From assembly GCA_964344285.1 (NCBI GenBank), contig CAYFMM010000002.1, forward strand, positions 72 through 64,071: a stretch of DNA of 64,000 bases. The letters are read 5' to 3'. Under the pieces are notes generated by a model that ran no database searches, was not told the DNA's origin, and was given only the letters and a program-made list of their open reading frames with translations. Of this stretch, positions 11,847 to 47,466 are shown in pieces. Both the position numbers and the translations under genes were made by a program. This stretch comes from an uncultured Methanosarcinales archaeon. GTDB taxonomy: Archaea; Nanobdellota; Nanobdellia; Woesearchaeales; GW2011-AR9. Positions within the stretch are counted from its first letter, which is position 1. The number at the start of each line of letters is the position of its first letter.

Positions 11847-11873
11847 TTTATGTTTGAATTTTTAACTAATCTT

Positions 11874-14084: not shown

Positions 14085-14105
14085 TGTAAACCTCTATTTT
14101 ACCTC

Positions 14106-15086: not shown

Positions 15087-15087
15087 C

Positions 15088-15900: not shown

Positions 15901-15903
15901 AAT

Positions 15904-18195: not shown

Positions 18196-18286
18196 CTTCT
18201 TTTTAGAGAAAAAGAAGTATACAGAGACTTATAAATGTATCGTTATAGCGACGAGGAGGTTTAGAGTTAGAAAAAGAAGATAAAAA

Positions 18287-18946: not shown

Positions 18947-18947
18947 T

Positions 18948-21631: not shown

Positions 21632-21653
21632 AGTTATTAGTAATTCTTAATTG

Positions 21654-25120: not shown

Positions 25121-25133
25121 AGCGCCACGGGCC
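25121..25133. repeat. 13-bp direct repeat 'agcgccacgggcc' identical to the 3' end region of tRNA-Ser at 47342..47354 (candidate distal att site)
   Basis: Exact 13-nt GC-rich match in an AT-rich genome, same orientation as the tRNA copy. No cloverleaf can be folded around this copy. Confidence 0.4.
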
Positions 25134-25585
25134 CGCAGGGGACAATCTTGACCAAGACAGTGAGATTTAAAGCTAAAGTGCGCATTCTTTCGAGGTCTGA
25201 TTAGAAGATAGCCGTACCCATTTTATTTCACAAGTACCAAAGCTTACATTTAAAAAGAACAAAATAATCCAAAGAACATGTTAGTTTTTGGCACAGATGT
25301 TCCCCTCATCGAGATTATATTCTCATTAGCTATTTTGACTTTTCTTATCCTTGCAGAAGTAATTATCATCTTGGCATTAATGATAAAGAGGATGAATGAG
25401 TGACCAAGGAACAAGATATTGCTCAGAGATTCCAAATAGAGAACATTTGTATAACTGCGTAGTTTCAAACACAGATAACTCAGACATTTTTATTACAACT
25501 CCAAATGAGCAAACAAGAACCATGACAAACACTTCAAGTAAGAGTGAATCCGTAATTGAGTGTGTTAAAGTTAATTAGTTTTTTT

Positions 25586-28500
25586 CTATTCTCCAAATGG
25601 ACTCTTAAACGTCCAGTCTTGAATTGCTTGGTTGCCTGCTTCATCATGTATTATTAGTGCAACATCATGATAACCACCAAAAAGAGGAGATGGAGTATAA
25701 CTAATACCTGAGGGAGTAATTGTTGCAGATGAGGTAACTATATTTCCATCAAGTTTTAACATAACATTACCTACATCTATTCCAGATAACAGGTCACTAA
25801 ATTGAGCTTCAATCAAAGGTTGAGTTGTGGTTACTTGACCAGCAGGGCCATAATTTGAAATGGTGGGAGGTGTTAAATCTACAAATAATTGTATACTTGC
25901 AATATTACCTTCATTTAAAGCATTATCAACTGCACGAACTTCTATAAGATGAGTTCCTTGACCTAAGTTTATTCCGATAGAGGTCAAAAGTGTCTGTTGC
26001 CAAGAACCACCATTTGTTCTGTATTCATAATACTTAATTCCACTTAGATCACTGATTGGACTCCAAGAAACTGTATGTTGTTGTATATTTATCCAATTAG
26101 TATAGGCAGTGGTTAAAGATGGAGTCCCAGGAGCAGTAGTATCCACTTTCAAATCTTGAGAAGCAATCTGACCTATATTTCCAGCAGCATCAATAGCTCG
26201 AACTTCGACAGGATGTACTCCATCTGACAACGAAGAAGTTGAAAACGATTTTCCTATAACGCTTTGCCAAGGATTTGAATCAACACGATATTCGTAGTAA
26301 TTGATAGAGTCAGCTAAAACATTCCAAATGACATCAAATTGTGTTTGTTGAGTCCACTCCGGATAAAGTGTTCCAAATGTCACAGCATTAGGAGGAGTTG
26401 TATCAATAGTTACATCCAAATTTCCAATTGCACCAGTATTCCCAGAATTATCAATTGCCCTTACACCGATATTTGTAATCCCATCTGGCAAATTAAATTG
26501 TGGATAAAATTCAGTTTGTGTTCCTACAATTACCCAAGGATTACCATCAACAGAGTATTCATATTCTGCAATACCAGATACATCATTCAATGCTTGCCAA
26601 TAAATACGGGGTTGGTCATTATTAGTAGGGCTATTGGGATCTGATTGAACCATCGGTGCAGCTGGACCTTGGAGATCAACATAAAGACTAATATTTGATG
26701 CAGGCCCAACGTTTCCAGCATTGTCAATTGCACGAACTTCCATTGTGTGAATCCCATGTGCTAATGTTTGTGTGGTTGCTTCCCTAATAGTAATTGCTTG
26801 CCAAGCTGCACCATCAACACGATATTCATAACTTGAAATGCCACTTGCATCTACTGGATCAGACCAAGTTACAGTATGTACTTGAACTGGAGTCCAAGTT
26901 GTGTGTGCTGTGTTTAGAGTTGGAGATGGAGGTGGTGTCTGATCTACTTGTGCCGTGACAAAACCAATCCCTCCTTGATTACCCGCAGTGTCCACTGCAT
27001 AAACACTGACGATATGTGTACCCTCAGGAACAGTTATTGTTGCACTTTGATTTAGACTAGCATTTATTGGGGCACTCGAACCGACTTGATATTCATAATG
27101 AGAAATTCCTGAAGCATCAGTTACTGCACTCCAAGTAAGAGCATGACTATTTTGATTTGTCCAGGTATTTGGATTAATTACAACATCTGGTGCAGCAGGA
27201 GCTGTTGTATCAATGTAGATACTTGCTTGCGCAATTGCACCCACATTACCTGCATTGTCAATTGCACGCACACTGATGTTGTGAACTCCACTCGTTAGTG
27301 TTGGAGTAGTAAGTGTTGTTGTAGATCCTACTGAAGTCCAAGTGCCAGCATCAATTGCGTACTCGTAATAATTAACCCCACTTAAATCATTAATAGAGTC
27401 CCAAGACACTTGCACCGTTGATTGAGTTGTCCAAGTTGGTGGACTTACTGTTAGCGTTGGTGCAACTGGTGCTTTGGAGTCTACCTTAAAATGATACGTT
27501 GAGGCAGAACTAAAAAGACCTACTTCGTCTACTGCAACTACATGAACATTCCATTGTCCATCAGGGAATACTGCTTGGCTTTGGTTTGTAAAAGCGCCCA
27601 CCGAAGAGAGATTAAATGAACCTGCATTGGAGAAACGATTCATTCTTCCTGGAACTGTATTTGTAAAAGTATCTGTAACATAATGATACCCAGCAATACC
27701 AGAGTGATTATCTGTTGCATTAGCACTAATTTCTACAATATTATTAGAGTACCACATTTGGTCGTCTGGGTGTGAGTTTGATGTAATCGTAGGAGTTGAT
27801 GGATTCTCTTTATCTATTTTTACGGTAACTACATTTGAAAAAGTCTGGTGGTTTAAAAAGTCAATTGCAATCACAGATAAATCATAAATGCCGGAAGGGT
27901 GAGTTGGATGAAAATAATTTTCCTCAATTGGAGTTGACACCGAATTTCCCGAGAGGAAATAGGTTTGAATACCACTACCCGCATCACCAGGATGATCCCA
28001 AGTGTAATAAGGAGAATCATGTGTTGTCCATTCAGATCCAGAATGCCATTCTTGTAAAAAGATTGGATTTGGAGGCAGTGTATCAATAAAAAGGTTAGTT
28101 GTGCCAACCTCACCAAGGTTTCCAAAATTATCTACTGCACGCACGGCAATTAAATGTGTTCCATCAGTTTGAGAAGGGGTTGTCACACTTGTAGCAGTTC
28201 CAACAGATGTCCAAACACCACCGTCAATTGAATATTCATAATGTGAGATTCCGCTTAAGTCTGTAACAGTTGTCCAAGATACCTGGTGGGTTGTCTGGGT
28301 AGTCCAATTAAATGGCGCTGCATTAACTGTAGGTGCCACTGGACCTTCAAGGTCTAAGACTGTTACTTCTTTTGTTACTTCGTTGTTGCCCTCGTCTGAC
28401 TCTGTTATTAAGTCAGGGAAATCAGCAGTAACAGTCATCTGTTGATCACCGTATGTTGTTGCGTTCCAAACAAAAGTTAAAGTTTGAGAGCTCTGTTGAG

Positions 28501-31500
28501 CAATATCTACAGTTTGTTCGCTAAACCCATTTCCGTAGTTCAATCTAATGATTGTTCCACTTGCATCAGTAAAACCATTATTATGAACAGTTACTTGTGT
28601 TTGGAGTTGGTTTAAGTTTTGACCTAAGTTGATAACATCAAATGCATCTAAAGATAAGTCTGCTAAATTAGATTGAACTATTAGTTGTTTAGTTCTTTGT
28701 GTCTGCAATCCAGAGCTATCTGTTGCAGTTACTGTAATATGATATACTCCTGATTGGGGTGCAACTAAAGTTCCTTCGTAAAGACCATTGTTTAAGACTA
28801 AGGATTGATCTTGAGAAGACAAGCCTGCATTTACTTGGGCAACTTCAACGTTGTCAGTTGTATTAACCCCGATTTGAAATGATGTCCCTGCAACAACCCT
28901 ATTTGGTGCAATGATTTGATGAATCACAGGTCTTGTTCCATCTTGAACTGTAATTGGGATTGTAAGTTGATTATTTGTTTCATCAGATTCTAAAACACTG
29001 TTAGCTGAATCAATTTCAATTGTCACATTATGAGCTCCTGCTGTTGCAGCCCACGTAAAAGGAATTGTGCTCACTTGACTTGTTAAAGACACTGTTTGTG
29101 ACTGAGTCTGATTACCATCAACAAAAAGAGTTGCCTGAGTTGTGTACGAAGAGCCCCCGTTCTTTTCTACAAAGACAGTGATTGTATTAACCACATTATC
29201 AGTCACAGGAAGTGGTTGGAAGTTCATCGCTGAAACAATTAAATCTGGTGTTTGAGAAAATACTTCAGCCAAGATCTGACGAGAAGAACGAAGTCCATTT
29301 ACATCTTCTACGATTATATCAATTGAATATTGACCTGCTTGAAGTAAAACTGTTCCTTCATATAAGTTAGTAGTTGGGTTTAATTGAAGGTTAACATTAT
29401 TTCCAGCAACTTGAGCAGTTACCGCTACAACACCCACATTGTCAACTGCGTCTACACTAATAAAAGTTGGGTTTCCTTCAATAACATTTGTTGCAGTCGC
29501 TTGATTAATTGTTGGAGGGGTTTGATCTAATGCCCATAGGGTTGTTGTTAGAATGTTATTTGCTTCATTTGACTCTGGTATTTGATTAGTTGGGTCTATT
29601 GAGATTGTGACATTATTCTGCCCAACATTAGGAGTAAAGGCAAATTGAATCAATTGATTAGATTGGCCCGCCACAGTAGTTGTCTGATTAGAGATAACAG
29701 CATTATTTACAAATAAACTGACCATCACATTTTGTGCGTTAGCTAAACCATAGTTAAACACAGTAACATTTAATGTTGAGGATGCTCCTTCGTAAAGAGT
29801 ATTCACTTGAATATTTTGTGCGTTAAGATCCGCTTCAGGACTAACGAAATTAAAAGTGAAATTTCTCGTGCTTGTTAAACCATTGATATTTGTAGCAGTT
29901 AGCCTGCCACTATACCTCCCAGGATTAGAACTAAACCAACCACTCCCTAAATAGATGTCGTTTGTCGAAGATGGAGAGAATATTGAGCCTAAGCTGTAAG
30001 GTTTTGCATATATAACCAATTCCACATTCCCTAAAAGAGGCGTCTCATCTGAGATATTTGCAGTTAGAGGAAATGATGAACCTACCATAATTGGATCGGG
30101 GTAATCTAAACTATTAATTATAGGCGCAGTCAAGTCGTCATACTGATACTGGATGTTTAAGTTTGAAATATTAAGAACACCGCTTGAAGCTGAAGACAAA
30201 ACAATTGGTACTTGACAAGTTGTCTGGCTTGGAGGACAGAGTACGTCGTCATTAAGGTAATTTTGTAAGTCTTGTGAAAAATCTGTTGTTGTTGCAACAC
30301 CTTGAAATTCTCCAGTATGATTCCAATTAACACTTAAATCATTTGCAGCATCAAGTGATGGGTCTCTTGGAAAGTTACTGTAAGTTACTTGTATATTTGA
30401 AAAGTCTAATCTTCCAAGGGTGTCTGAATGGAAGGTTACTGGAACTAAGCAGAGGTGTTGTTGAAGTTGACATCCAACACAATCACAAGCACCATTATTT
30501 AGCGCTTGATTAATCTCTTGTGCAAAGTCTGGCACGGTTTGAGTAATATTAAAAGTATTTTGATAACTCCATTCATAAGAGCCATCAGCAGTTCCAACCT
30601 CTATAAATGGATTTGAAGGGTATGAAGAGTTCGCAAAATTTGCAACACCAGGTAGTCCATAATATCCATTATTTCCTGAATTCTGCCAAGCGTTATTTTG
30701 TTGGAACCACCGTTGACCCCCAATACCAGCAAGACCTGATTGAAGTAATCTAGTTGAGCTATCTACAAGATACAAAGAGGAGATATAAAGGTTACCTGAG
30801 TTGCCACCGCCACCACCATGACCCCCTTGACCACCTTCTCCAAAAGGCCCATTATGTGTAATCCTCTTTCCGCCATTACCTCCATTACCACCAGCGCTGC
30901 CAGAAAGGTCTATATTACCAGACAATAAAACGTTTTTTGCATAGAATCCAAGATTCCCGCCAGGGCTCCCTGCAACACCGCCTGCACCTCCGCCACCGCC
31001 AGCATCTAAGCACCAAGTACACTGCCATGAGCCTCCATGACTTAGCTGAACTGAACCATCTTGTCCATCAGCTCCATATGAATTTCCACCTGCACCACTT
31101 CGAACGTTAACTGAACAACCATAACCCCCTAATTCTGCAAGAGCTGAACCTGCCCCGCCTGCGCTAAAGCCATTTGCAGAAGAACCATCTTGTCTACGAA
31201 GACCATTCCCCCCTGAGAGATCAACGCTAGCTCCTGCTTGGCCAAAAGGAGTTCCGCCACCCACATTATTCCCTCCGTTATTAGGCCTATAATCACAATT
31301 AGTGCCCCCTCCTCTACCACTTGCTCCATACCCTGAAGTCTCACCACTCCCACTTCGTCCAACACCATTGGCACCAGATACTAGGACACCTGAAAGGTCA
31401 ACATCACCAGAAATAGTTACGCCATTTTGTGCACGAATAATCATTGTGTTTCCAGTGGTATCTTGTGTTGAAAGTGTTTTCCCAGTGCCAAGGTTGATAT

Positions 31501-33034
31501 TTGTAAATTGATACTCCTGATCCATGTTAAGATAAATTGTGTTTCCATTAACAGTATAATCTTGACCTTGAATCAGATTACCTAAAGAGGTTGCTGAGTT
31601 AGTAAAAATTAATTCTCCATCGCTACCATCCCCCATATTTATTGGAACGTCCATAGTACCAGTAATATCAAAGGTTGCAGAGCTTACATTTGCAAAACGG
31701 TTAACAACAATGCGATAAACTGGATCTGCTGTAGGGCCAATATGAATTGAACCAAAAGGTAAGAACTGGTTAAATACAATCACTACAGAGCCAGGTCCGA
31801 TTTTTACTTCTGTTTGTTCAGATTCTATTTCTAAGACAAAACTCCCAGAGTCTTGTATTGTAGGGTTAAATGAACCAACCATCTGTGCCTGTCCCTGTAA
31901 AACTTCAAAAGGCATGCCTTGATTTTTCACTTGTAATAAATCTTGTTTTAATTGTGTCCAATCTTTTGTAAAATAGTGATTTGCAAAATCTTCTGCTTGG
32001 TATAAATTCAAATAAGTTCTTGGAGGAAACTGCTCAATTTCTACTTCTGGCGCACATGTAACTTCCCCATTGTTATCTTCACAAGAAGGTGCAGGCATAT
32101 TTGTAACTTTTGGATATAATTCAGCTTCATCTACTTTATAGGTTTCTTTATCGACACCTAACTTTGTTAAACAGATATCAAAGTTATCTTCAGGATTACA
32201 TCTTTGAAAGACTTCTTTTACAAACTCGTCTTTCCATTGCCATTGCACACGATAAAAGTTTCCTTGAATATACTCTAAAGAATATTCTAAGTAATTAGAG
32301 ATGTAATCCTGTCTAGAGATCTCCCATGCGTGTGCAGTTGAATCTAATGAATCTAGTGAAGCTTGTAATTGATTAGCATCAAATTGACATTGGGATGTTG
32401 TTGGGCTTGGAGGGTTATTATGGGAAGGATCATTTGTTCTTGCATAACAATCATTTGAATCAACATAGAAGTGAGAAATTGTGTTGTCGTGGCGACAATC
32501 AGTTTGTAACTCAACCCAATTAGGAGTACAACCTGTATCTAATGAGGGAAGAGTAAACACATTAAAGTTCTCCACAGTAATTAAGTGTGAAAGTTCTTCG
32601 TCAGGATAAATGACTTCAATTTCAGGAATATTTTGAGTAGAGGTTTCTTCTAAAGTTAAAGTTCCAATTTGAGAAGAGGAAGCAAATTCTTCGTCTCCTT
32701 CAAATAACAAAGACATTTCATGGGTACCAAACTCGGTCCATTGGAAAAGAGCTTTTCCATCAACATCTGTTATCTGTGAGTCTTGTAGATTGTCATCGAT
32801 GTATAAATCAACTTGTTTTGCCTCTAGCGGCATGTTTTCAACATCAGTTAGTTGTGTTTCTATTTCTATAATATCAGATTGGGGGGTTGTGACAGATGTG
32901 AGAACTGTTTTCACAAGAGGGTTTTCAACCTGACTTAAAGCAATTGAAGAGATAATTACTAAGAGTAATACAAGTACGGAACCGAACAGTAATTTATTCC
33001 TCATTTGAAAGACCCTCCACTTGTGCAATGGCAC
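25586..33034 (-). CDS. Giant (about 2470-2482 aa) secreted adhesin-like protein: signal peptide, N-terminal Cys-containing region, Gly/Asn-rich segment, 3 CARDB-like + 3 Ig-like alternating repeats, then ~9-10 FN3-like repeats
   Basis: Probable true start at the internal Met 'MRNKLLFGSVLVLLLVIISSIALSQV' (~33004). CARDB hallmark endings 'ESNEANN', 'ESDETNN', 'ESDEGNN'. FN3-like unit 'PxAPTxxxxPxxWTxQxxHxVxWxxVxDxSGIxxYEYxxDGGxW...RAxDNxGNxG' repeated from ~28360 down to ~25850. Gly-rich segment 'GGNGGNGGKRITHNGPFGEGGQGGHGGGGGNSGN' lies at ~30700-31400. Its 5' end overlaps the 3' end of the subtilase gene. Confidence 0.7.
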   Translation of the reverse strand: MPLHKWRVFQMRNKLLFGSVLVLLLVIISSIALSQVENPLVKTVLTSVTTPQSDIIEIETQLTDVENMPLEAKQVDLYIDDNLQDSQITDVDGKALFQWTEFGTHEMSLLFEGDEEFASSSQIGTLTLEETSTQNIPEIEVIYPDEELSHLITVENFNVFTLPSLDTGCTPNWVELQTDCRHDNTISHFYVDSNDCYARTNDPSHNNPPSPTTSQCQFDANQLQASLDSLDSTAHAWEISRQDYISNYLEYSLEYIQGNFYRVQWQWKDEFVKEVFQRCNPEDNFDICLTKLGVDKETYKVDEAELYPKVTNMPAPSCEDNNGEVTCAPEVEIEQFPPRTYLNLYQAEDFANHYFTKDWTQLKQDLLQVKNQGMPFEVLQGQAQMVGSFNPTIQDSGSFVLEIESEQTEVKIGPGSVVIVFNQFLPFGSIHIGPTADPVYRIVVNRFANVSSATFDITGTMDVPINMGDGSDGELIFTNSATSLGNLIQGQDYTVNGNTIYLNMDQEYQFTNINLGTGKTLSTQDTTGNTMIIRAQNGVTISGDVDLSGVLVSGANGVGRSGSGETSGYGASGRGGGTNCDYRPNNGGNNVGGGTPFGQAGASVDLSGGNGLRRQDGSSANGFSAGGAGSALAELGGYGCSVNVRSGAGGNSYGADGQDGSVQLSHGGSWQCTWCLDAGGGGGAGGVAGSPGGNLGFYAKNVLLSGNIDLSGSAGGNGGNGGKRITHNGPFGEGGQGGHGGGGGNSGNLYISSLYLVDSSTRLLQSGLAGIGGQRWFQQNNAWQNSGNNGYYGLPGVANFANSSYPSNPFIEVGTADGSYEWSYQNTFNITQTVPDFAQEINQALNNGACDCVGCQLQQHLCLVPVTFHSDTLGRLDFSNIQVTYSNFPRDPSLDAANDLSVNWNHTGEFQGVATTTDFSQDLQNYLNDDVLCPPSQTTCQVPIVLSSASSGVLNISNLNIQYQYDDLTAPIINSLDYPDPIMVGSSFPLTANISDETPLLGNVELVIYAKPYSLGSIFSPSSTNDIYLGSGWFSSNPGRYSGRLTATNINGLTSTRNFTFNFVSPEADLNAQNIQVNTLYEGASSTLNVTVFNYGLANAQNVMVSLFVNNAVISNQTTTVAGQSNQLIQFAFTPNVGQNNVTISIDPTNQIPESNEANNILTTTLWALDQTPPTINQATATNVIEGNPTFISVDAVDNVGVVAVTAQVAGNNVNLQLNPTTNLYEGTVLLQAGQYSIDIIVEDVNGLRSSRQILAEVFSQTPDLIVSAMNFQPLPVTDNVVNTITVFVEKNGGSSYTTQATLFVDGNQTQSQTVSLTSQVSTIPFTWAATAGAHNVTIEIDSANSVLESDETNNQLTIPITVQDGTRPVIHQIIAPNRVVAGTSFQIGVNTTDNVEVAQVNAGLSSQDQSLVLNNGLYEGTLVAPQSGVYHITVTATDSSGLQTQRTKQLIVQSNLADLSLDAFDVINLGQNLNQLQTQVTVHNNGFTDASGTIIRLNYGNGFSEQTVDIAQQSSQTLTFVWNATTYGDQQMTVTADFPDLITESDEGNNEVTKEVTVLDLEGPVAPTVNAAPFNWTTQTTHQVSWTTVTDLSGISHYEYSIDGGVWTSVGTATSVTTPSQTDGTHLIAVRAVDNFGNLGEVGTTNLFIDTLPPNPIFLQEWHSGSEWTTHDSPYYTWDHPGDAGSGIQTYFLSGNSVSTPIEENYFHPTHPSGIYDLSVIAIDFLNHQTFSNVVTVKIDKENPSTPTITSNSHPDDQMWYSNNIVEISANATDNHSGIAGYHYVTDTFTNTVPGRMNRFSNAGSFNLSSVGAFTNQSQAVFPDGQWNVHVVAVDEVGLFSSASTYHFKVDSKAPVAPTLTVSPPTWTTQSTVQVSWDSINDLSGVNYYEYAIDAGTWTSVGSTTTLTTPTLTSGVHNISVRAIDNAGNVGAIAQASIYIDTTAPAAPDVVINPNTWTNQNSHALTWSAVTDASGISHYEYQVGSSAPINASLNQSATITVPEGTHIVSVYAVDTAGNQGGIGFVTAQVDQTPPPSPTLNTAHTTWTPVQVHTVTWSDPVDASGISSYEYRVDGAAWQAITIREATTQTLAHGIHTMEVRAIDNAGNVGPASNISLYVDLQGPAAPMVQSDPNSPTNNDQPRIYWQALNDVSGIAEYEYSVDGNPWVIVGTQTEFYPQFNLPDGITNIGVRAIDNSGNTGAIGNLDVTIDTTPPNAVTFGTLYPEWTQQTQFDVIWNVLADSINYYEYRVDSNPWQSVIGKSFSTSSLSDGVHPVEVRAIDAAGNIGQIASQDLKVDTTAPGTPSLTTAYTNWINIQQHTVSWSPISDLSGIKYYEYRTNGGSWQQTLLTSIGINLGQGTHLIEVRAVDNALNEGNIASIQLFVDLTPPTISNYGPAGQVTTTQPLIEAQFSDLLSGIDVGNVMLKLDGNIVTSSATITPSGISYTPSPLFGGYHDVALIIHDEAGNQAIQDWTFKSPFGE

Positions 33035-38452: not shown

Positions 38453-38933
38453 TTTAAACTTCTATTTAAACCATTTGTATATGCTAAATATATCTTTTGA
38501 CGACTGATTTTCAGGTATATACTTCTTTTCATGCTTTTCTCACAAACGCTTTTGTTGTTTTCTTTTCAACTTCACCACCAGCCGCTATTTTTGTAGCAAC
38601 TTCTTTAAGATACACAATATACCTTTCTCCTTGCAGTTCAACTTCTTTTTCGCAGATTATTTTCATTGTCAATCTCTTTGTTAACTTCCATGAACTTTCT
38701 TACTACTTTCCTGTATTCAATCCAGTAACTGGGAAAATCCCGTTTGACAGTAAAGACTGCCTGAAGTTTAGCAAAATCGGAGGGATCAAGTCTCATGAAA
38801 AATTCTCTTTGATAAATTATTAAATATCTTACCTTTACAAATTTCCTTTGCTGTCCTCTTTTTCCGACACTTTAAAGAAGATGTCCAGTACTTCCGTACA
38901 AACTTATATATGAAAAGATCTTTTGTAAATTGA

Positions 38934-40356: not shown

Positions 40357-40441
40357 ATATCCTGCTCCTACACCTCAAATAGGTAAAAAAAGTAAATAGT
40401 ACATAAATACTTCCTAAATTCTGCATATACCCCATATACCC

Positions 40442-40696
40442 TTATGGCATCTTTTCAAGAAATTTTATTCCTTCTTTGGTAATTGAAATTCGAAATGATT
40501 CTTTTTTAGAAGGGCTTTTATCTTTAGGTATTTTCTCTATTGTAATAAACCCGTATTTTCCTAAAGCTTCGCAATTACTTTTTACTGTCCTAAACCCTGT
40601 CTTGATAAGTTCAGTTAACTGAAAGTAAGAATCAGCAGGTTTGTTTACCAATGTTTTAAGAATGTCCTTTCTGATTTCATCATTGTTTCTTCGCAT
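40442..40696 (-). CDS. Small (84 aa) winged-helix transcriptional regulator
   Basis: 'IRKDILKTLVNKPADSYFQLTELIKTGFRTVKSNCEALGKYGFITIEK' is a typical small wHTH repressor layout. Confidence 0.4.
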   Translation of the reverse strand: MRRNNDEIRKDILKTLVNKPADSYFQLTELIKTGFRTVKSNCEALGKYGFITIEKIPKDKSPSKKESFRISITKEGIKFLEKMP

Positions 40697-41040
40697 CAGT
40701 GCATATTAGCAGTAAAATTTATAAATAGCTTCAGTATTTTGTAGCACTGATGAATCGAAAAGAAAAAAGATACCTAGAATTTGTATTATCTGACTGCAAG
40801 AGACTTGAAAAAGAGAATAATCTAGCAGAGTATGGAAAGGGACAAAAAGACTTATGTTTAATTCTTCTAAAAGAAAATTATTCGTAAATGCTTGCATTTA
40901 AGGTATTTAACCTAGAGAGTGCTAAAGCAAACACTTATTTCGAATTTTATTACTGCAGTTGTTCTGGTTTATAATAGTTTGTTTTCTTACTATTTTTCTC
41001 ATAACCTACCTAAAAATTTATAAATAAACACTACTTTGTA

Positions 41041-42327
41041 ATGACAATGAAACTCGAAAACATCATGCGAAAAACTTTACCTTTCCTATTATCCACTTCA
41101 TTATTCACGGCAACTTCCTGTGTGGATAAATCAGAAATGCTCAACAATAATCAGGTTGACGTTTGTTCTTATGATCCTGCAATCTGTAGACCAGCAAGTG
41201 GCTCAACACCCTCAGGCGAGGACTGGGAAAAAACATATGATTCTAATGGAGGCATTGGCATTGCACGTGGGGTAGCTGTTGATTCACGTAATAATATCGT
41301 TGTAGTAGGAGACGGATATAATGTTGCTTCTACTCAAAGTGGATTTGATATGGTAGCTAAGAGATTTGATGCAAATGGACAAGAAGATCCAAATTGGAAT
41401 CCTGTCATAAACCCAGCAGATGGCACAGATCAGGCTTTAGATGTTGCAGTCGATTCTCAGGATAATGTGTATGTTGTTGGACTTACAACAAGTGAAGGAA
41501 ACAATATGGATTGGTCTATTTCAAAATATGATCCTTGTGGGAATTTATTGTGGGCCAAATCAGTTGACGGATCAGGTGGAACAGATGTACTACATAGTGT
41601 GGCTGTAGATTCTCAAGATAATGTGTATGTTGCAGGAGCAATTACAAATGAACAGAGTGGAATTGATATGGTTGTTACTAAATATGATTCTTGTGGAGAA
41701 GAGCAATGGAGCAGGGATTTTGATAACAACGGGGGCCACGAAATTGCTAGTACAGTAGCTGTTGATTCTCAAGATAATATTTATGTTGGAGGTAACGGAT
41801 CAGGCTTAGTAGAAGGTTCAGGAAGCGACGACCAGATAGTAATAAAATACGATTCTTCTGGAGAAGAACTATGGAGAAAAACTACAGATCATGGGAAAAG
41901 TGAAACTGTTTCTGATATTGTAATTGATTCCAATGACAATGTTTATGTTGCAGGTAACTCAGTTGATTTTGACAATAATACTTCCAGTTCAACATTTGCA
42001 AAATATGACCCTTCTGGAAATGAACTTGAGAATAGGGTTGCAAATACAAATACTGCTTTTGCTGTAACTACTGATGCAGAAGGTAATGTTTATGTCGGTG
42101 GATTTGCCATAAATTCAGAGGGAAAGAAAGATTGGTCTTTAGTGAAATATGATCCTTCTGGAGATGAAACATGGGACAGGACATTCGATGTGAATGGTGG
42201 AAACGACACCATTCGTTCAATTACAGCAAACAGTGCTGATAAATTATATGTTGTTGGCGGTGGAGAAAATGCAGTTGGTTCTCAAACAAATGCAGATTGG
42301 GTAGTGAGACAGATTTCTAGAGAATAA
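41041..42327 (+). CDS. Lipoprotein composed of ~7 SBBP-type beta-propeller repeats
   Basis: Signal + lipobox 'STSLFTATSC'. Repeated ~50-aa unit 'SVAVDSQDNVYVAG...G.DMVVTKYDSCGEEQWSRDFD' (pattern VAVDSxxNxYVxG....DxxxxKYDxxGxxxW). Confidence 0.65.
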   Translation: MTMKLENIMRKTLPFLLSTSLFTATSCVDKSEMLNNNQVDVCSYDPAICRPASGSTPSGEDWEKTYDSNGGIGIARGVAVDSRNNIVVVGDGYNVASTQSGFDMVAKRFDANGQEDPNWNPVINPADGTDQALDVAVDSQDNVYVVGLTTSEGNNMDWSISKYDPCGNLLWAKSVDGSGGTDVLHSVAVDSQDNVYVAGAITNEQSGIDMVVTKYDSCGEEQWSRDFDNNGGHEIASTVAVDSQDNIYVGGNGSGLVEGSGSDDQIVIKYDSSGEELWRKTTDHGKSETVSDIVIDSNDNVYVAGNSVDFDNNTSSSTFAKYDPSGNELENRVANTNTAFAVTTDAEGNVYVGGFAINSEGKKDWSLVKYDPSGDETWDRTFDVNGGNDTIRSITANSADKLYVVGGGENAVGSQTNADWVVRQISRE

Positions 42328-42380
42328 AGTCTTTTATAGCAACTTTAATAAACGCTCTTTTCTTACTCTTATTTAGTATA

Positions 42381-45300
42381 ATGGAAGAAAAAAGGAGATT
42401 GGTACTAGTGTTAGTTCTACTTTTAAGTCTCTCTTTATATTTTGCATTCTCAATTGACGGTACTGAAGACATTATTGGATGGAATTTAACGTTTGATGCA
42501 ACTGGAGCTCCTGACGTCGCACGTGGAGTTGCAATAGATTCAAACAATTATGTATATGTTGTGGGAGAAGGATTTAACCTATACAGTGAGCCAACAAGCG
42601 GGGCTGATTGGTGGGTAAAAAAATTTTACGAGAATGGTACCGAATTTAATACAACGGCAGGGTGGAATAAGTCAATTGATGGAAATAGTAACACAGATCA
42701 AGCTTTAGGTGTTGCTATTGATTCAAACAATAATATTTATGTTGTAGGAACTGCAACTAATGTTTACAACACAACAAGTCAGAATGATTGGTGGGTTAAG
42801 AAATTTAACTCAACAGGACATGAATTTAACATAACAGAAGGATGGAATAAGACATTTGATGCAACTGGTGCAGGGGATATTGCATATGGAGTAGCTACTG
42901 ATTCAAATGATAACATCTACGTTGTTGGTGTTGCAACAAATCTTGTTGGAGCTGGGACTGGTTCTGATTGGTGGATCAAAAAATTTAACTCTTCAGGACA
43001 TGAATTTAATACAACAGAAGGATGGAATAAATCTTACGATGGAGCCAGTGGAGCAGATATTGCAAGAGCTGTAGCAATTGATTCAAATAATGACGTGTAT
43101 GTTGTAGGTCAAGCTACAAATTTAGTGAATGGAACTAGTCAAAACGATTGGTGGATCAAAAAGTTTAATTCTTCAGGTACTGAAAATATTAGTGCATGGA
43201 ACAAAACTTTTGATGGTTCTGGAAGTAGTGATATCCCTTACGGCATAGACATTGATTCTGAGAATAATGTTTATGTCATTGGCGATTCTACCAATCTTGT
43301 AAGTGGCACAAGTGGACTAGATTGGTGGATTAAAAAGTTTAATTCAACAGGGAATGAAACGTTTACTGGATGGAATAGAACATTTGATGGGAATAGTGGC
43401 GCAGACAGTCCATTTGGCATTAACATTGATTTAGAAGATAATGTGTATGTTGTTGGTTATGCAACAAATATCGTAAGTGGAAGTAGCGGAGCTGATTGGT
43501 GGGTCAAGCGATTTAACAAAACAGGCTACGAATTTAATGCAACTGATGGGTGGAACAAAACATATGACGTAGACGATAGTAGTGACCAGGCTAGGGCTGT
43601 TGCAGTATTTTCTGACAATAATGTAAGTGTAGTTGGTCATGCGACAAATGCAGTGTCTGCTTCTAGCAACCAAGATTGGTGGTTAAAGAAATTTGAAGGA
43701 AGTGATAGAACTGCACCATCAGTAAACATCACTAACCCAACAAACAACAGTAATTTCTCTTCAAGTGTGCAAGCGTTTAATGCAACTGTTACTGATACTT
43801 TTTCTAATGTAGATCAAGTGATTTTTGTATTCTCCACAAACACAACTCCATTCAATAGAAGTGCAACAAATATTTCAGGTAATTGGAACACTAACGTCGA
43901 TTTATCAACAGTAGTTGAAGGAACACATATAATCACTGTATTTGCAAATGATACTTCAAACAACATAAACATAACACAATCAATTACAATTATAATAGAC
44001 AGAACGAATCCTCTTGTAAATATTACAACTCCTGTAAATGGAACAAACCTTAGCTCAGGCACACAAGCATTTAATACAACAGTTCAAGATTTAACTGCAA
44101 GGCAAGTAATCTTTGTCTTTAACAACGCTTCAGGAAATGATTTTAATGTTACAGCAGCCAACAATTCAGGCAACTGGCACAACAATGTTGACCTTTCAAG
44201 ATTTATTGAAAGTAAAAGCCATAATGTAACGGTCTTTGCAAATGACAGCCTTAACAATATTAATTATACAGAATCTATTTGGTTTACTGTAGACCGAACC
44301 GCACCAAATGTGACAATCATCAACACTTCATTTAGCACAACTTCAACAACACCTGTAATTTATGTTAATGTAACAGACAATATTTTCAACCAGACTTCAT
44401 GTAGTCTTTATTTTTCTAATTCTCTTTCAACTACGTCTACAGTAATAAACGCAACTTTGACTGGCATTACTGCATCTTCTCTTTCAACTGGGACGTATGC
44501 AACAAATGTAAATTGTACCGACAGTTCAGGAAATCTAGGCAATAGTAGCGTAATTAACGTGACCATCACAGCCACAAGTTCTTCTGATAGCAGTAGTAGC
44601 GGAGGTAGTGGGGGTTCTGGCCGTTCAGGAGGAGGAGGTTCTCTGCCAGTTCCAGAAGAGACTACTACAGAAGAGAATCCAACGGAGGAGAATTCAGGCA
44701 ACTTCTTAGTTGAGATCATTGCAGAAACAGAAGAACTATCTCAAGAAGAAGGAGAAACAGCATTAGTGGGCAGTGCGATAGCAACTCCACAAACAAGTAC
44801 AAAGCCATTCACCAGAGAAAAAACAGTGACGGTACGTTTTACAAATACAAAAAACAATGCAATAACCGTACTTCCAACAATAAAAGAATTTCTGCCCCCC
44901 TTAGAAAATGAGAATATTCTGCAGCAAAAAGTCGGTGAACAACAACTTGAAACATTAAAACGAATTGAAAAAGAAAATGTTAATTTCATTACTGGTAGAG
45001 CAGTTTCTTTTAGTAAAGGAACAGCATGCAGGACATTTAGTGGTATGCAATATTCAAGAGATTTAATCACTGGGGATTTGCTCAAGCCAGAGATTCTTAA
45101 CCCGCGTGAGATCACAGTATTGCCTAATCAAACTATTGAAGAGGATTTTAACATCCGCCAGGGAGTCTCAGCTAAGGTAGGTAGAGATACACTTGTGTTT
45201 GTTTCTGGAGAAAAAGAAGTTGCGCAAAAAGAGATTATTGCAAAAAGGGAAATTGGCAGTACCGTAAGTATTGATGCGAAAAATCACATATTAGACCTTT

Positions 45301-45929
45301 ATGCACAAATTCCAAAGCAGGACAACAAGGCAAGATATATGGTGGAAGTTAATATTAATCAAGATGAAGACTCCCTTCTTTGGCAACCAAAAAACTTATT
45401 TGGTGACCTGTATGGCACGTACACCTCAGGAGCAGTATTTGCCCAGCAGTTCATCTACGATCCTACATGTTATCAGGGTAAGGCAATACTTAATGCCAAG
45501 ATTTACAAGGACAACGAAGTAGTTTCAAACAACTTCTTTGCAATTAATTTTAATACCGGAACTGTAACCCCAACAGGAAAAACAGAACCAAGAATTGGTA
45601 TTGCAGGGATAGTTTTCTTATTCTTATTATTTGCTGGAACCATAATATTTTGCCTGTTTTTAATCAGGCAAGTTACAGTAAGAAAAAAACCATTTGTTCT
45701 AAAACCAATAGCATACCTTACGCCAAAACCAGTCATTTCCAAAGAAGAAAAAGAACTGCTGGAAAAAGAGGCTAAAAGAAAGTATCTCCTAAAAAGGCGT
45801 GAGGAACTAAAAAGACAAATCGCGCAGTTAAAAGCAAAAAGACAACAAGAGGTGAATTTTAGAACTGAACGATTTCATAAATTTAAAACAGAACTGGATG
45901 AAGAACATAGAAAGATTGTGAGAAAATGA
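42381..45929 (+). CDS. 1182-aa type I surface protein: signal, ~8 SBBP beta-propeller repeats, ~6 Ig-like N-glycosylated repeats, Ser/Gly and acidic linkers, C-terminal domain, TM and KR-rich coiled-coil cytoplasmic tail
   Basis: Repeats 'WNKTFDATGAGDIAYGVATDSNDNIYVVGVATNLVGAGTGSDWWIKKFNSSGHEFNTTEG'. Ig-like units are dense in NxT/S sequons (NIT, NTT, NVT, NSS). TM 'IGIAGIVFLFLLFAGTIIFCLFLI'. Tail 'KEEKELLEKEAKRKYLLKRREELKRQIAQLKAKRQQ'. Confidence 0.7.
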   Translation: MEEKRRLVLVLVLLLSLSLYFAFSIDGTEDIIGWNLTFDATGAPDVARGVAIDSNNYVYVVGEGFNLYSEPTSGADWWVKKFYENGTEFNTTAGWNKSIDGNSNTDQALGVAIDSNNNIYVVGTATNVYNTTSQNDWWVKKFNSTGHEFNITEGWNKTFDATGAGDIAYGVATDSNDNIYVVGVATNLVGAGTGSDWWIKKFNSSGHEFNTTEGWNKSYDGASGADIARAVAIDSNNDVYVVGQATNLVNGTSQNDWWIKKFNSSGTENISAWNKTFDGSGSSDIPYGIDIDSENNVYVIGDSTNLVSGTSGLDWWIKKFNSTGNETFTGWNRTFDGNSGADSPFGINIDLEDNVYVVGYATNIVSGSSGADWWVKRFNKTGYEFNATDGWNKTYDVDDSSDQARAVAVFSDNNVSVVGHATNAVSASSNQDWWLKKFEGSDRTAPSVNITNPTNNSNFSSSVQAFNATVTDTFSNVDQVIFVFSTNTTPFNRSATNISGNWNTNVDLSTVVEGTHIITVFANDTSNNINITQSITIIIDRTNPLVNITTPVNGTNLSSGTQAFNTTVQDLTARQVIFVFNNASGNDFNVTAANNSGNWHNNVDLSRFIESKSHNVTVFANDSLNNINYTESIWFTVDRTAPNVTIINTSFSTTSTTPVIYVNVTDNIFNQTSCSLYFSNSLSTTSTVINATLTGITASSLSTGTYATNVNCTDSSGNLGNSSVINVTITATSSSDSSSSGGSGGSGRSGGGGSLPVPEETTTEENPTEENSGNFLVEIIAETEELSQEEGETALVGSAIATPQTSTKPFTREKTVTVRFTNTKNNAITVLPTIKEFLPPLENENILQQKVGEQQLETLKRIEKENVNFITGRAVSFSKGTACRTFSGMQYSRDLITGDLLKPEILNPREITVLPNQTIEEDFNIRQGVSAKVGRDTLVFVSGEKEVAQKEIIAKREIGSTVSIDAKNHILDLYAQIPKQDNKARYMVEVNINQDEDSLLWQPKNLFGDLYGTYTSGAVFAQQFIYDPTCYQGKAILNAKIYKDNEVVSNNFFAINFNTGTVTPTGKTEPRIGIAGIVFLFLLFAGTIIFCLFLIRQVTVRKKPFVLKPIAYLTPKPVISKEEKELLEKEAKRKYLLKRREELKRQIAQLKAKRQQEVNFRTERFHKFKTELDEEHRKIVRK

Positions 45930-45943
45930 TCAGTTCCCCCTTA

Positions 45944-47239
45944 TTATTCTATCAATTCATTAAACTTTTCAAAATCATCTAACAATTCTTTCCGTAAGTC
46001 ATTTCGTAGCCATTTAGGATATTTCTGCAGTTTAGAATCAACAACCTTGGCGAATAATTCTTTTAGTGCAGCTTTAAGAGATTCCTTAAATAAATCAGGC
46101 TTCAAAAACTTCTTAATTTCTGCCAATTCAACTTCTCTTTGTTCATCTCTTAATTTTATTTCGTTTTCTAAAACAGTAATCCGTTTTTCTAATTTAGTAC
46201 GAGCTTCTGTTTCAAGAAGGATATCTTGCTCAACAATAGTATCTTTCATTCCCAATAGCTTGGTGTAATAATGCACTATGCTGTTTTCAACCCATCCAAA
46301 ACGGAATTTGAAAGCAGATTCAGATTTATAGCGGGGAAGCCAGTAACAAGCCGAGGAATGCCGAAAATCGTACAAACGAATTTCTCTGATAAATTTTCCT
46401 CCCTTCGTTTTAAAATCCCCGAGAACGCGCACAAAAAGCCGCTGAATGTATCTTTTGGCAACAGTAGGATCAATATTAAAGAGATAGGATTCGTTACCTA
46501 GATTCATTACTTCTAGGTATTCTTTAATGAGATTAGAACAAAGTAATAATTTAGGTCTCCTCCCAAAAGTTTTGGCAACCTCTTCTCTGATATTAACTTC
46601 ATACACATTTTCATCTTCACGCCACGTTAAATCTTCAACTTTGATATTCATTAATTCCGTAGGTGCACGGATGCCTGAGTCAAACATAAACCACATCATT
46701 ACTTTGTAATCAAATTTAGCCGATGCTACAACTCGCTTAAATTCTTCAATTGTAAAGTAAGCAAACTTATTTTCCTCCACTGGACCCATATCAATATAAG
46801 TTGTGATATCCTTAATAGAATTGCCATTTTCATCTTCTCTCTTTTGATACCAATGCCAAAATGCTTTGAAGACGTTAGCATAGTCCCTTACAGAAGTATA
46901 ACGATTTCCTTTATTTGTGAGAATGTATCCTTTCCTCATGTACTCGTTAAAGAACTTGCTCACATCCTTGCGAGTTAACTCACCAAGATTTTTTTTGAAT
47001 GATTGCTCCATTTGCAGCGCAATCCAGCGCATCCGCTGACGAAGATTATTGAGCCGTGCGTAGCTTAGACCCCCTGGTCTGCCCACATGGTAACCACTTT
47101 CCATGTCAGAGATATATTCTAAAATGAGCTCCTGGTTCTCAGAAGAGACATCTTTGACGATAGGATTTTTCTTCCAGTTAAGATATTTCTTTTCATGACC
47201 CCAAACATCACGTTTCATGTCGTTACTTGTGCATAGCAA
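45944..47239 (-). mobile_element. int: Tyrosine recombinase / phage-type integrase
   Basis: Box I 'FDSGIRAPTEL' (catalytic Arg), box II 'LYDFRHSSACYWL' (HxxR) and a downstream Tyr in 'SIVHYY'. Its 5' end faces the 3' end of tRNA-Ser ~100 nt away. Confidence 0.75.
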
Positions 47240-47343
47240 TTATTTAAGCGTTGTCCCACTCAGTTGCCTTATTTGTACTCCTGTCGACGATAAAGGGAAC
47301 TAAATGGGGAATTAAATTTCAAGTTTTGGTCAAAAAAGTAAAG

Positions 47344-47466
47344 CGCCACGGGCCGGATTTGAACCGACGATCCCAGATGGGACTGGATGTTTGGTATACA
47401 CGGAGATCTGATCGACAGATACAGCCGATAGCAATCCAGCGCAATACCAGACTATGCGACCGTGGC
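47344..47466 (-). tRNA. tRNA-Ser (anticodon GCU) with ~40-nt intron in the anticodon loop and a long variable arm
   Basis: Folded by hand on the minus strand. Acceptor GCCACGG/CCGTGGC, U8. D-loop carries GG. Anticodon stem CTGGA/TCCAG, loop TTGCTA|intron|A with U33 and A37. Variable arm 'TCCCATCTGGGATC' (class II). T-arm GTCGG-TTCAAAT-CCGGC. Ends may be off by +/-3 nt. Confidence 0.6.

What the first reader, a model, noticed from the sequence alone, without database searches (positions are those of the whole stretch)
25121..47354. Putative ~22-kb tRNA-Ser-integrated genomic island carrying the giant adhesin, subtilase, beta-propeller proteins and regulators
A tyrosine integrase (45944..47239; R...HxxR...Y boxes) lies ~100 nt from the 3' end of tRNA-Ser(GCU) (47344..47466), the canonical attL arrangement. 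An exact 13-nt copy of the tRNA 3'-end region ('agcgccacgggcc', 47342..47354) occurs in the same orientation at 25121..25133. That site is intergenic and cannot be folded into a tRNA. A 13-mer chance match in 64 kb is unlikely (order 10^-2 or less, and less still for a GC-rich word in AT-rich DNA). The bracketed segment contains the 2482-aa FN3/CARDB protein, the 1525-aa subtilase, a lipoprotein, a GNAT, two wHTH regulators (typical island cargo) and two SBBP proteins. This would mean part of the surface-attachment repertoire is horizontally mobile.
Basis: partly seen in the sequence, partly recalled or inferred. Interest (0 to 1): 0.7.

Follow-up and report, generated by a model that had tools for sequence, protein, structure and literature searches.

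The report
tRNA-Ser-integrated 22-kb island in Woesearchaeota
A 22-kb block of secreted adhesin-, protease- and propeller-type genes in an ultra-small (DPANN/Woesearchaeota) archaeon was inserted at the very end of a serine tRNA gene by its own integrase, so part of this cell's surface equipment arrived as movable DNA; the mechanism itself is a well-known one.

Summary

- **tRNA and repeat.** tRNA-Ser(GCU) at 47344..47466 (-) is real and contains an intron. Default ARAGORN misses it. The 13-mer AGCGCCACGGGCC occurs only at 25121 and 47342.
- **Integrase.** The adjacent ORF is a divergent tyrosine integrase, shown by a PHROG hit, a Foldseek fold match and an invariant catalytic set. It most likely starts at 47218 (424 aa).
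- **Insertion.** In 80 related Woesearchaeota genomes the right flank up to SepF is syntenic and none carries the integrase. In two of them (L062, L030), SepF-tRNA-Ser is followed directly by homologues of the window's left-flank genes p1107, p526 and p383. The segment 25134..47341 is therefore an insertion.
- **Family behaviour.** The integrase belongs to a large DPANN family. 34 of 83 copies sit just downstream of a same-strand tRNA. Other members have 10-16-nt direct repeats that start at the same tRNA position as the window's 13-mer.
- **Limits.** Composition is not anomalous. No empty-site or circular junction was found, so current mobility is unproven.
- **Cargo.** The cargo is mostly signal-peptide proteins, with no viral or conjugative genes.

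This is a new member of a known kind and moderately interesting.

The parts
47344..47466 (-). tRNA-Ser(GCU) gene with an intron after the anticodon. It is the integration target (attB side of attL) and remains intact after insertion.
   Evidence: Rfam RF00005, 42.4 bits. ARAGORN -i calls tRNA-Ser(gct) with an intron. Orthologous tRNA lies downstream of SepF in 26 of 80 related loci.
47342..47354 (.). attL core: 13-nt identity segment, made of the last 11 nt of the tRNA plus 2 nt of trailer.
   Evidence: Exact repeat. It is in the same register as the direct repeats of other family members.
47326..47333 (.). TTGGTCAA. This is the integrase-proximal half of an 8-bp inverted repeat that would flank the core in the rejoined attP. 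It lies inside the conserved P' arm CTTTACTTTTTTGACC.
   Evidence: The arm is conserved in L003 and L005/L006.
45944..47218 (-). Tyrosine integrase, 424 aa, intact. Catalytic set is R184, K216, Y283 (in the usual His position), R286, W309, Y318.
   Evidence: PHROG_1 at 3.6e-18. These residues are invariant in a 36-sequence alignment. 24 of 36 relatives hit PF00589. Fold matches IntI, XerA, Cre and lambda Int.
42381..45929 (+). Cargo: 1182-aa secreted SBBP beta-propeller repeat protein, with 174-183-nt coding repeats.
   Evidence: Pfam SBBP at 9.3e-22. Repeats. Signal peptide.
41041..42327 (+). Cargo: 428-aa SBBP beta-propeller lipoprotein-like protein.
   Evidence: Pfam SBBP at 2.7e-15. N-terminal lipobox.
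40442..40696 (-). Cargo: 84-aa small putative winged-helix protein. It is a candidate regulator or directionality factor, by inference only.
   Evidence: Weak Pfam hits: HVO_A0114 at 0.0024 and HTH_34 at 0.026.
39520..40356 (-). Cargo: 278-aa protein with a weak N-terminal wHTH.
   Evidence: Penicillinase_R at E = 0.0019.
38934..39542 (+). Cargo: 202-aa protein, possibly a GNAT acetyltransferase. The hit is below threshold.
   Evidence: Acetyltransf_1 at E = 0.022, below the Pfam cut-off.
37568..38452 (-). Cargo: 294-aa lipoprotein, first gene of an overlapping three-gene operon.
   Evidence: Lipobox LVGC. Its stop overlaps the subtilase start.
32994..37571 (-). Cargo: 1525-aa secreted subtilase with CARDB, PKD, Big and HYR domains.
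   Evidence: Peptidase_S8 at 9.3e-40. The only full-length homologue is P0242 at 31% identity.
25586..33034 (-). Cargo: 2482-aa secreted CARDB/Big-domain giant surface protein.
   Evidence: CARDB at 1.2e-26 and Big_13. The subtilase plus giant gene pair is conserved in L172.
25148..25155 (.). TTGACCAA. This is the distal half of the 8-bp inverted repeat of the reconstructed attP, 14 nt inside the island from the attR core.
   Evidence: 10 of 12 match with an 8-bp perfect core. 30 of 2000 shuffles do as well.
25121..25133 (.). attR core: the displaced 13-nt copy of the tRNA 3' end. It is followed, toward lower coordinates, by a native-type T-rich tRNA trailer and the p1107 gene.
   Evidence: There is no tRNA or other RNA family here.

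Best explanation
The segment 25121..47354 is an integrated genomic island in a Woesearchaeota (DPANN) chromosome. It measures 22,221 bp counting one core.

**Proposed mechanism.**
- A circular element carried the integrase gene and an attP site.
- The rebuilt attP reads TTGGTCAA-N14-GGCCCGTGGCGCT-N8-TTGACCAA.
- This element recombined with the extreme 3' end of tRNA-Ser(GCU).
- Strand exchange took place inside a 13-bp identity segment made of 3 nt of T stem, the acceptor 3' strand, the discriminator and 2 nt of trailer.
- The tRNA gene is therefore regenerated at attL, next to the integrase.
- A 13-nt tRNA fragment is left at attR, 143 nt upstream of the native neighbour p1107.

**Cargo.** It consists of two SBBP propeller proteins, a lipoprotein-subtilase-giant CARDB protein operon, and three small or regulatory proteins. 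There is no replication, conjugation or virion module.

**What is shown.** The tRNA, the repeat, the integrase fold and active site, insertion relative to conserved synteny, and the family-wide use of this tRNA position.

**What is inferred.** The circular intermediate, the crossover position within the 13 bp, the present ability to excise, and a surface or host-attachment role for the cargo.
For: **tRNA, repeat and integrase.**
- The tRNA is confirmed.
- The 13-mer is unique to the two ends. It is expected 2.5e-5 times per strand.
- The integrase is supported.

**Synteny.**
- 80 SepF loci from GTDB species genomes were examined.
- The order ATPase-p189-p207-3 membrane proteins-p527-SepF is conserved in most of them, and none has an integrase homologue.
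- In L062 the order after SepF is tRNA, then a p1107 homologue (E = 2e-136, 999 aa aligned), a p526 homologue (1e-46) and a p383 homologue (1e-51).
- In L030 the order is SepF, tRNA-Ser(GCU), then a p1107 homologue (8e-104) starting about 95 nt after the tRNA.
- At least 16 loci carry left-flank homologues within 10 kb downstream of SepF.

**Integrase family.**
- 34 of 83 integrase homologues have a same-strand tRNA 76-333 nt upstream.
- In-register direct repeats are found in L104 (16 nt, 6.5 kb), L137 (14 nt, 4.6 kb), L128 (13 nt, 7.4 kb), L118 (12 nt, 4.7 kb) and L168 (10 nt, 6.0 kb).
- The two contexts of the identical P0012 integrase diverge at the last 11 nt of tRNA-Ser(GGA).
- attP-like sites with inverted repeats around a tRNA-like core occur in L097, L098, L100 and L102.

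**Junction sequences.**
- The window's rebuilt attP has an 8-bp perfect inverted repeat.
- The trailer after attR resembles the native trailers of relatives.

**Precedent.** The SNJ2 virus uses a 14-bp core at the 3' end of tRNA-Met (PMC5861418).
Against: - There is no compositional signal. GC, GC3 and tetranucleotide distance of the island fall within the range of the flanks: rank 16 of 28 segments, p = 0.13.
- No empty-site or circular junction was seen. All 3 contigs carrying this SepF and all long contigs carrying p526 are occupied. The degenerate attB/attP pattern is absent from JGI metagenomes, which do not hold this population.
- The syntenic left-flank homologues are only 30-32% identical and come from different species, so the empty site is inferred at the gene-order level, not at nucleotide level.
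- The repeat is short. Taken alone, allowing any 13-mer from a 69-nt query over the tRNA 3' part (10 nt of trailer plus 57 nt of tRNA), it would be about a 3% event.
- Apart from the integrase, the cargo shares no backbone gene with other elements of the family.
Confidence: 0.85

Rival explanations
1. The island is a real past insertion but is now a fixed, immobile relic. The integrase gene persists, yet the element no longer excises or transfers, so the surface genes are effectively chromosomal.
For: - Composition is fully host-like.
- Every contig recovered from the two samples is occupied.
- No recognisable excisionase, replication or transfer gene is present.
- The inverted repeat in the rebuilt attP is only 8 bp perfect, whereas some other family members have 17 bp.
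Against: - The integrase is full length with all family-invariant catalytic residues.
- Both cores are identical at 13 of 13 positions.
- The same integrase family shows population-level context polymorphism elsewhere.
Confidence: 0.35
2. The segment is composite. Two or more elements or gene blocks accumulated at the tRNA-Ser hotspot, and only the outermost att copies survive. On this view the surface-protein operon need not have travelled with this integrase.
For: - The region downstream of tRNA-Ser is variable among relatives and is rich in large secreted proteins without any integrase, for example in L060.
- The subtilase plus giant pair occurs in L172 with no integrase in the available flank.
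- GC dips to 0.33-0.34 around 38-42 kb.
Against: - No internal core copy exists, even with 1-3 mismatches.
- The two ends form an inverted repeat only when joined.
- In L030 and L062, p1107 directly follows the tRNA.
Confidence: 0.1
3. The 13-mer is a chance or tRNA-like GC-rich match, and the integrase is a lone gene beside a tRNA. On this view the 22 kb is native chromosome.
For: - The repeat is short and does not extend.
- A 13-nt match to some part of a 69-nt query over the tRNA 3' part arises in about 3% of simulated windows.
- There is no compositional anomaly.
Against: - This specific word is expected 2.5e-5 times.
- It lies exactly in the intergenic gap where synteny with L030 and L062 breaks.
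- It is in the family-wide register.
- It is followed by a native-type trailer.
Confidence: 0.04
4. The segment is a provirus or an integrated conjugative or plasmid element.
For: An integrase next to a tRNA is also typical of proviruses and integrated plasmids, from general knowledge and PMC8371274.
Against: - No capsid, terminase, portal, Rep, VirB4 or relaxase hits appear in Pfam or PHROGs.
- The integrase family has no relative in IMG/VR, the INPHARED phages or PLSDB plasmids.
- About 70% of the coding sequence is five signal-peptide surface proteins.
Confidence: 0.03

Closest known systems
Classical tDNA-integrated genomic islands (Islander-type; Williams 2002 'asymmetric 3'-end' sublocation; PMC4383910)
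   Same: - A tyrosine integrase gene lies next to an intact tRNA gene.
- A displaced tRNA 3' fragment forms a direct repeat at the far end.
- The cargo is unrelated to mobility.
- The tRNA is regenerated after insertion.
   Different: - The host is a DPANN archaeon.
- The displaced fragment is very short, with only 11 nt of tRNA.
- The tRNA carries an intron.
- There is no compositional contrast with the host.
SNJ2-type integrase system of haloarchaeal pleolipovirus SNJ2 (PMC5861418)
   Same: It is an archaeal tyrosine integrase with a 14-bp att core identical to the 3'-distal end of a tRNA gene. The integrase gene stays intact on integration.
   Different: - No detectable sequence relationship was found. 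tblastn against the phage collection gave no hit, though whether SNJ2 is in that copy was not verified.
- No Orf2/Orf3-like accessory operon is evident.
- The element here is not a virus.
SSV-type 'suicidal' integrases of Sulfolobales/Thermococcales (PMC7253208, PMC8371274)
   Same: They are archaeal, target tRNA genes and belong to the tyrosine recombinase fold.
   Different: In SSV-type systems the att site lies inside the int ORF, and the gene is split on integration. Here the core is 112 nt upstream of an intact int.
Tycheposons of Prochlorococcus (bioRxiv 10.1101/2020.12.28.424599)
   Same: They are cargo-carrying elements with tyrosine recombinases that integrate at tRNA genes of a streamlined genome and build niche-adaptive islands.
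   Different: They are bacterial and their recombinases are unrelated. Many carry replication or packaging-related modules, and none is seen here. This comparison rests on the abstract and on my own knowledge.
Integrated mobile elements of Thaumarchaeota (PMC6563490)
   Same: They are integrase-bounded cryptic integrated elements in tRNA genes, including intron-containing tRNAs, in uncultured mesophilic archaea.
   Different: The phylum and the integrase clade are different. This comparison was not examined at the sequence level here.

Membership tests
tDNA-integrated genomic island | Intact tRNA gene at one boundary | tested here: met
   tRNA-Ser(GCU) at 47344..47466.
tDNA-integrated genomic island | Integrase gene immediately inside the tRNA-proximal boundary | tested here: met
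   The integrase at 45944..47218 lies 125 nt from the tRNA 3' end on the same strand. The same layout is seen in 34 of 83 family members.
tDNA-integrated genomic island | Direct repeat of the tRNA 3' fragment at the distal boundary | tested here: met
   13 of 13 nt match at 25121..25133, and the repeat is unique in the window. It is in register with the family.
tDNA-integrated genomic island | Absent from related genomes, with flanks contiguous (empty site) | tested here: met
   This is met at gene-order level. L062 and L030 show SepF-tRNA-Ser-p1107(-p526-p383). None of the 80 loci has the integrase. A nucleotide-level attB from the same species was not found.
tDNA-integrated genomic island | Excision to a circular form (attP junction) or an empty attB in the population | tested here: inconclusive
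   No such contig or pattern was found. Raw reads could not be searched.
tDNA-integrated genomic island | Atypical composition (common but not obligatory) | tested here: not met
   Tetranucleotide, GC and GC3 values are within the range of the flanks.
Tyrosine recombinase superfamily | Two-domain fold, with a core-binding domain and a catalytic domain | tested here: met
   The AF2 model has pLDDT 87.9. Foldseek gives probability 1.0 to 2a3v (IntI), 5hxy (XerA), Cre and lambda Int.
Tyrosine recombinase superfamily | Catalytic R-K-H-R-H/W-Y set | tested here: met
   R184, K216, R286, W309 and Y318 are invariant. The first His position is an invariant Tyr (Y283) in this family. Assignment of these roles is by motif position and was not tested biochemically.
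Tyrosine recombinase superfamily | Pfam PF00589 at its gathering score | tested here: not met
   The window protein has no hit at E<=1. 24 of 36 relatives do hit, with best E = 1.9e-10. PHROG_1 hits at 3.6e-18.
SSV-type (suicidal) integrase | att site inside the int ORF, with int split into Int(N) and Int(C) on integration | tested here: not met
   The integrase is intact and the core lies upstream of its start codon.
SNJ2-type integrase system | Short core at the tRNA 3' end | tested here: met
   The core here is 13 bp, against 14 bp in SNJ2 (PMC5861418).
SNJ2-type integrase system | Sequence membership in the Int(SNJ2) clade and co-transcribed Orf2/Orf3 accessory genes | tested here: inconclusive
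   There is no tblastn hit in the phage collection. No small ORFs lie in an operon with int, because int is followed by the convergent SBBP gene. No direct comparison with the SNJ2 sequence was possible.
Provirus | Virion or packaging hallmark genes | tested here: not met
   No such Pfam or PHROG hits were found. The integrase family is absent from IMG/VR and INPHARED.
Integron | IntI-type integrase with an adjacent array of attC-bounded cassettes | tested here: not met
   IntI is the top structural match only as a generic tyrosine recombinase, at 14% identity. The repeat search shows no attC-like array. The target is a tRNA.

The most novel reading that the evidence does not exclude
The window's integrase may represent a large, DPANN-restricted and so far undescribed clade of tyrosine integrases.

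- About 1,900 proteins match at E<=1e-3.
- The clade has no relatives in the viral or plasmid collections searched.
- It uses a minimal 10-16-bp core at the extreme 3' end of tRNA genes.
- Observed targets are Ser, Asp, Glu, Gly, Arg, Thr and Ile tRNAs.

On this reading the clade is a main vehicle by which ultra-small symbiotic archaea exchange three kinds of genes:
- host-attachment surface proteins, as in this island;
- reverse-transcriptase (DGR-like) modules, as in L118 and L128;
- defence systems such as R-M, Dnd and Abi, as in L003 and L005.
Probability: 0.35. Interest if true: 0.6.

Novelty: new member of a known kind. Interest (0 to 1): 0.45.

Why it matters
DPANN archaea have tiny genomes and are thought to live attached to other cells. 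Their giant, fast-evolving surface proteins are the prime candidates for host recognition.

This island shows that a 22-kb block of such genes entered as an integrase-borne island at a tRNA gene. The block holds a subtilase, a 2482-aa CARDB adhesin-like protein and two propeller proteins. That gives a concrete route for lateral exchange of host-interaction determinants in this group.

It also provides a defined att site and integrase pair that could be tested, or even used as a genetic tool. The mechanism itself is classical, so the value is mainly descriptive and lies in opening up the DPANN mobilome.

Tried and rejected
- **Default ARAGORN** found no tRNA. Rfam and intron mode resolved this.
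- **Pfam and PDB sequence searches** on the integrase were uninformative. PHROGs, the family alignment and the fold search were needed.
- **Exact-protein look-ups** for empty-site variants returned only occupied contigs. The queries were SepF, the 190-aa membrane protein and p526.
- **The degenerate attB/attP/attL/attR pattern** in JGI metagenomes returned nothing, because the source population is an ENA assembly.
- **The IMG/VR scan, and the phage and plasmid tblastn searches,** found no relatives of the integrase.
- **Composition and codon tests** gave no signal.
- **A shared island backbone** with other family members was sought and not found.
- **An RNA gene at 25121,** such as a split-tRNA half or another ncRNA, was considered and rejected.
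- **Subtilase orthology.** The subtilases 2 kb downstream of SepF in L019, L020, L025 and L048 were considered as possible orthologues of the island subtilase. They were rejected because they are on the opposite strand, match only across the S8 domain at 32-38% identity, and have no tRNA-Ser there.
- **Wu et al. 2024** (Nat Microbiol, DPANN viruses and MGEs) could not be read. Prior description of this integrase clade therefore cannot be excluded.

Full report
**1. The observation**

The tRNA is real. Rfam places a tRNA at 47344..47466 on the minus strand (42.4 bits), with a 42-nt insertion after the anticodon. ARAGORN with intron search calls it tRNA-Ser(gct). The default run finds nothing.

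The 13-mer AGCGCCACGGGCC is exact at 25121..25133 and 47342..47354, and no other copy exists even with two mismatches. On the tRNA strand it reads GGCCCGTGGCGCT. That is the last 3 nt of the T stem, the 7-nt acceptor 3' strand, the discriminator G and 2 nt of trailer. It does not extend.

A first-order Markov model expects this word 2.5e-5 times per strand. Allowing any 13-mer from a 69-nt query over the tRNA 3' part, a match arises in 10 of 300 simulated windows.

The 25121 site lies in the 608-bp gap between the stop of the 2482-aa gene and the start of the 1107-aa gene. It matches no Rfam family at E<=1 and has no folding signal.

**2. The integrase**

- Pfam does not recognise the ORF, and neither does a PDB sequence search.
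- PHROG_1 'integrase' hits at 3.6e-18.
- A database search finds 1,911 homologues, annotated where named as Woesearchaeota or Nanoarchaeota integrases.
- 24 of 36 aligned relatives hit PF00589.
- The alignment shows invariant R184, K216, Y283, R286, W309 and Y318. It also places the start at the ATG at 47218, giving 424 aa.
- An AlphaFold2 model (pLDDT 87.9) matches IntI, XerA, Cre/Tre, lambda Int, XerH and Tn1549 Int at probability 1.0.
- The gene is intact, so it is not an SSV-type split integrase.

**3. Is the 22 kb an insertion?**

The window comes from a 192-kb metagenome contig (ERZ930065). A scan of GTDB species genomes with a SepF alignment returned 80 loci.

The right flank is conserved in order and orientation in most of them. 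That order is ATPase772-p189-p207-three membrane proteins-p527-SepF. None of the 80 loci contains an integrase homologue. A tRNA-Ser(GCU) orthologue follows SepF in 26 of them.

Two loci are decisive.
- **L062.** After SepF and the tRNA come a p1107 homologue (E = 2e-136 over 999 aa), a p526 homologue (1e-46) and a p383 homologue (1e-51).
- **L030.** After SepF comes tRNA-Ser(GCU), here with introns in both the anticodon and T loops. A p1107 homologue (8e-104) starts about 95 nt after it.

These are exactly the genes to the left of 25121, in the same order and orientation. Removing 25134..47341 from the window recreates the arrangement of the relatives. In that reconstruction p1107 starts 143 nt after the tRNA.

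The sequence after the 25121 copy (CTCTTTTTAATCC...) resembles the native trailers after uninterrupted tRNA-Ser genes in L060, L067, L013 and L012. The sequence after the 47342 copy (CTTTACTTTTTTGACC) matches the integrase-proximal arm of related elements: L003 has CTTTATACTTTTGACC, and L005/L006 have TTCTTACTTTTGATCC.

**4. Family behaviour**

A metagenome scan with the integrase alignment gave 80 more loci. Of 83 integrase copies, 34 have a same-strand tRNA 76-333 nt upstream. These include Asp-GTC (17 copies) and Glu-TTC (8 copies), plus Gly, Arg, Thr and Ile tRNAs.

Where enough downstream sequence exists, direct repeats of the tRNA end are found:

| Locus | Repeat length | Distance downstream |
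|---|---|---|
| L104 | 16 nt | 6.5 kb |
| L137 | 14 nt | 4.6 kb |
| L128 | 13 nt | 7.4 kb |
| L118 | 12 nt | 4.7 kb |
| L168 | 10 nt | 6.0 kb |

All of these begin at the same position as the window's 13-mer, which is the last 2-3 nt of the T stem.

One integrase, P0012, is 52% identical to the window's. It is found with identical downstream genes in two upstream contexts. These diverge exactly at the last 11 nt of a tRNA-Ser(GGA).

Loci without a tRNA carry attP-like sites. In these a tRNA-like GC-rich core is flanked by inverted repeats, 17 bp long in L102.

Joining the two ends of the window's island creates TTGGTCAA-N14-core-N8-TTGACCAA. That is an 8-bp perfect inverted repeat (10 of 12 matching), equalled in 30 of 2000 shuffles.

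Short cores at tRNA 3' ends have an experimental precedent in the archaeal virus SNJ2, which uses 14 bp (PMC5861418). The 2021 review of archaeal tyrosine recombinases notes a general preference for tRNA 3' ends and does not mention DPANN (PMC8371274).

**5. Cargo**

- Five proteins with N-terminal signal peptides or lipoboxes make up most of the island. They are SBBP propellers of 1182 and 428 aa, a 294-aa lipoprotein, a 1525-aa Peptidase_S8 with CARDB, PKD, Big and HYR domains, and a 2482-aa CARDB/Big protein.
- The last three genes overlap as an operon.
- The subtilase has a single full-length homologue, at 31% identity. In that genome it is likewise followed by a giant CARDB protein that is 31% identical to the window's, so the pair is a conserved module.
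- The 84-aa and 278-aa proteins are weak wHTH candidates.
- The 202-aa protein is a sub-threshold GNAT hit.
- No viral, replication or conjugation functions were detected.
- The integrase family has no relative in IMG/VR, INPHARED or PLSDB.
- Other elements of the family carry different cargo and share no backbone with this island. L118 and L128 carry reverse transcriptases, L005 carries R-M and Abi genes, L003 carries Dnd genes, and L104 carries sugar-related enzymes.

**6. What is not shown**

- Composition is host-like.
- All contigs from the two samples are occupied.
- The junction pattern search in JGI data was empty, because that collection does not hold this population.
- The insertion is therefore well supported, but present-day excision or transfer is not.
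- The surface or host-attachment role of the cargo is inferred from domains and signal peptides only.

**7. Verdict**

The segment is a tRNA-Ser(GCU)-integrated genomic island of 22.2 kb. Its integrase belongs to a large DPANN-specific clade that recombines within the last ~11 nt of tRNA genes.

The mechanism is classical, so this is a new member of a known kind. The moderately novel aspects are the host group, the minimal core, the size and apparent non-viral nature of the integrase clade, and the surface-protein cargo.

Noticed in passing
L005/L007/L008/L093/L094 versus L006/L009/L010, around locus position 9865: The identical integrase (P0012) with identical downstream genes occurs in two upstream contexts. 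The downstream genes are a NikA-like gene, methyltransferases, a DpnII R-M system, AIPR and AsnC.
- One context has tRNA-Ser(GGA) and host genes (MutL, HIT).
- The other has no tRNA and instead carries AAA_25, MazE and FG-GAP genes.

The two diverge at the last 11 nt of the tRNA. Most contigs end 7-10 kb downstream of int. This could be an integrated form versus a free or tandem form of one element.
   Followed up: partly
L102, L097, L098, L100 and L092, about 60-110 nt upstream of the int start: These loci carry attP-like sites. A tRNA-acceptor-like GC-rich core is flanked by inverted repeats. An example from L102 is CTTCAAAAATACACTAC-CTCCGGCCGGGGC-GTAGTGTATTTTTGAGG. This suggests they are non-integrated copies and defines likely core-type integrase binding sites.
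   Followed up: partly
L118 13285-14475 and L128 2053-3231: Small elements of 4.7 and 7.4 kb, bounded by in-register tRNA repeats, each carry an RVT_1 reverse transcriptase (E = 2e-20 and 6e-22). They may be diversity-generating retroelements riding on these integrative elements.
   Followed up: no
L030 11091-11211; also L012, L015 and L062: tRNA-Ser(GCU) orthologues in relatives carry long or multiple introns. L030 has one in the anticodon loop and one in the T loop. Rfam misses L030 and L062 at gathering threshold. ARAGORN misses L030 and mislabels the orthologues in L012 (Asp), L015 (Asn) and L062 (Lys).
   Followed up: partly
window 10755..24977 (-): The left flank is a run of secreted or unknown proteins: p1107, p526, p383, p219, p763 (NosD/Laminin_G_3), p270, p336, p736 and p363. 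Members of this run recur downstream of SepF-tRNA-Ser in at least 16 related genomes. It is a conserved but fast-evolving surface-protein neighbourhood.
   Followed up: partly
L172 1668-12889 (GCA_964602555.1): The subtilase (1556 aa) and giant CARDB protein (2184 aa) gene pair is conserved with the window's pair at about 31% identity each. This suggests a functional two-gene module, perhaps a protease that matures or partners the giant protein.
   Followed up: partly
window 42477..43700 and 41221..42120: The two SBBP genes contain arrays of 156-183-nt coding repeats at 60-78% identity, corresponding to propeller blades. These are potential substrates for repeat-number variation.
   Followed up: no
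window 12228..12368 and 14520..14660: A 141-nt segment is 77% identical between the p736 and p336 genes, and a related 55-nt piece occurs at 15334. These are paralogous Cys-rich modules among neighbouring surface-protein genes.
   Followed up: no
L003 / JGI 3300072015 contig (P0002, 64% identical integrase): The closest integrase relative sits beside a core without a tRNA. On one side is a 3412-aa NosD/beta-helix giant protein. On the other is a methyltransferase plus a complete Dnd (DndB-E, DndA-like) defence cluster.
   Followed up: no
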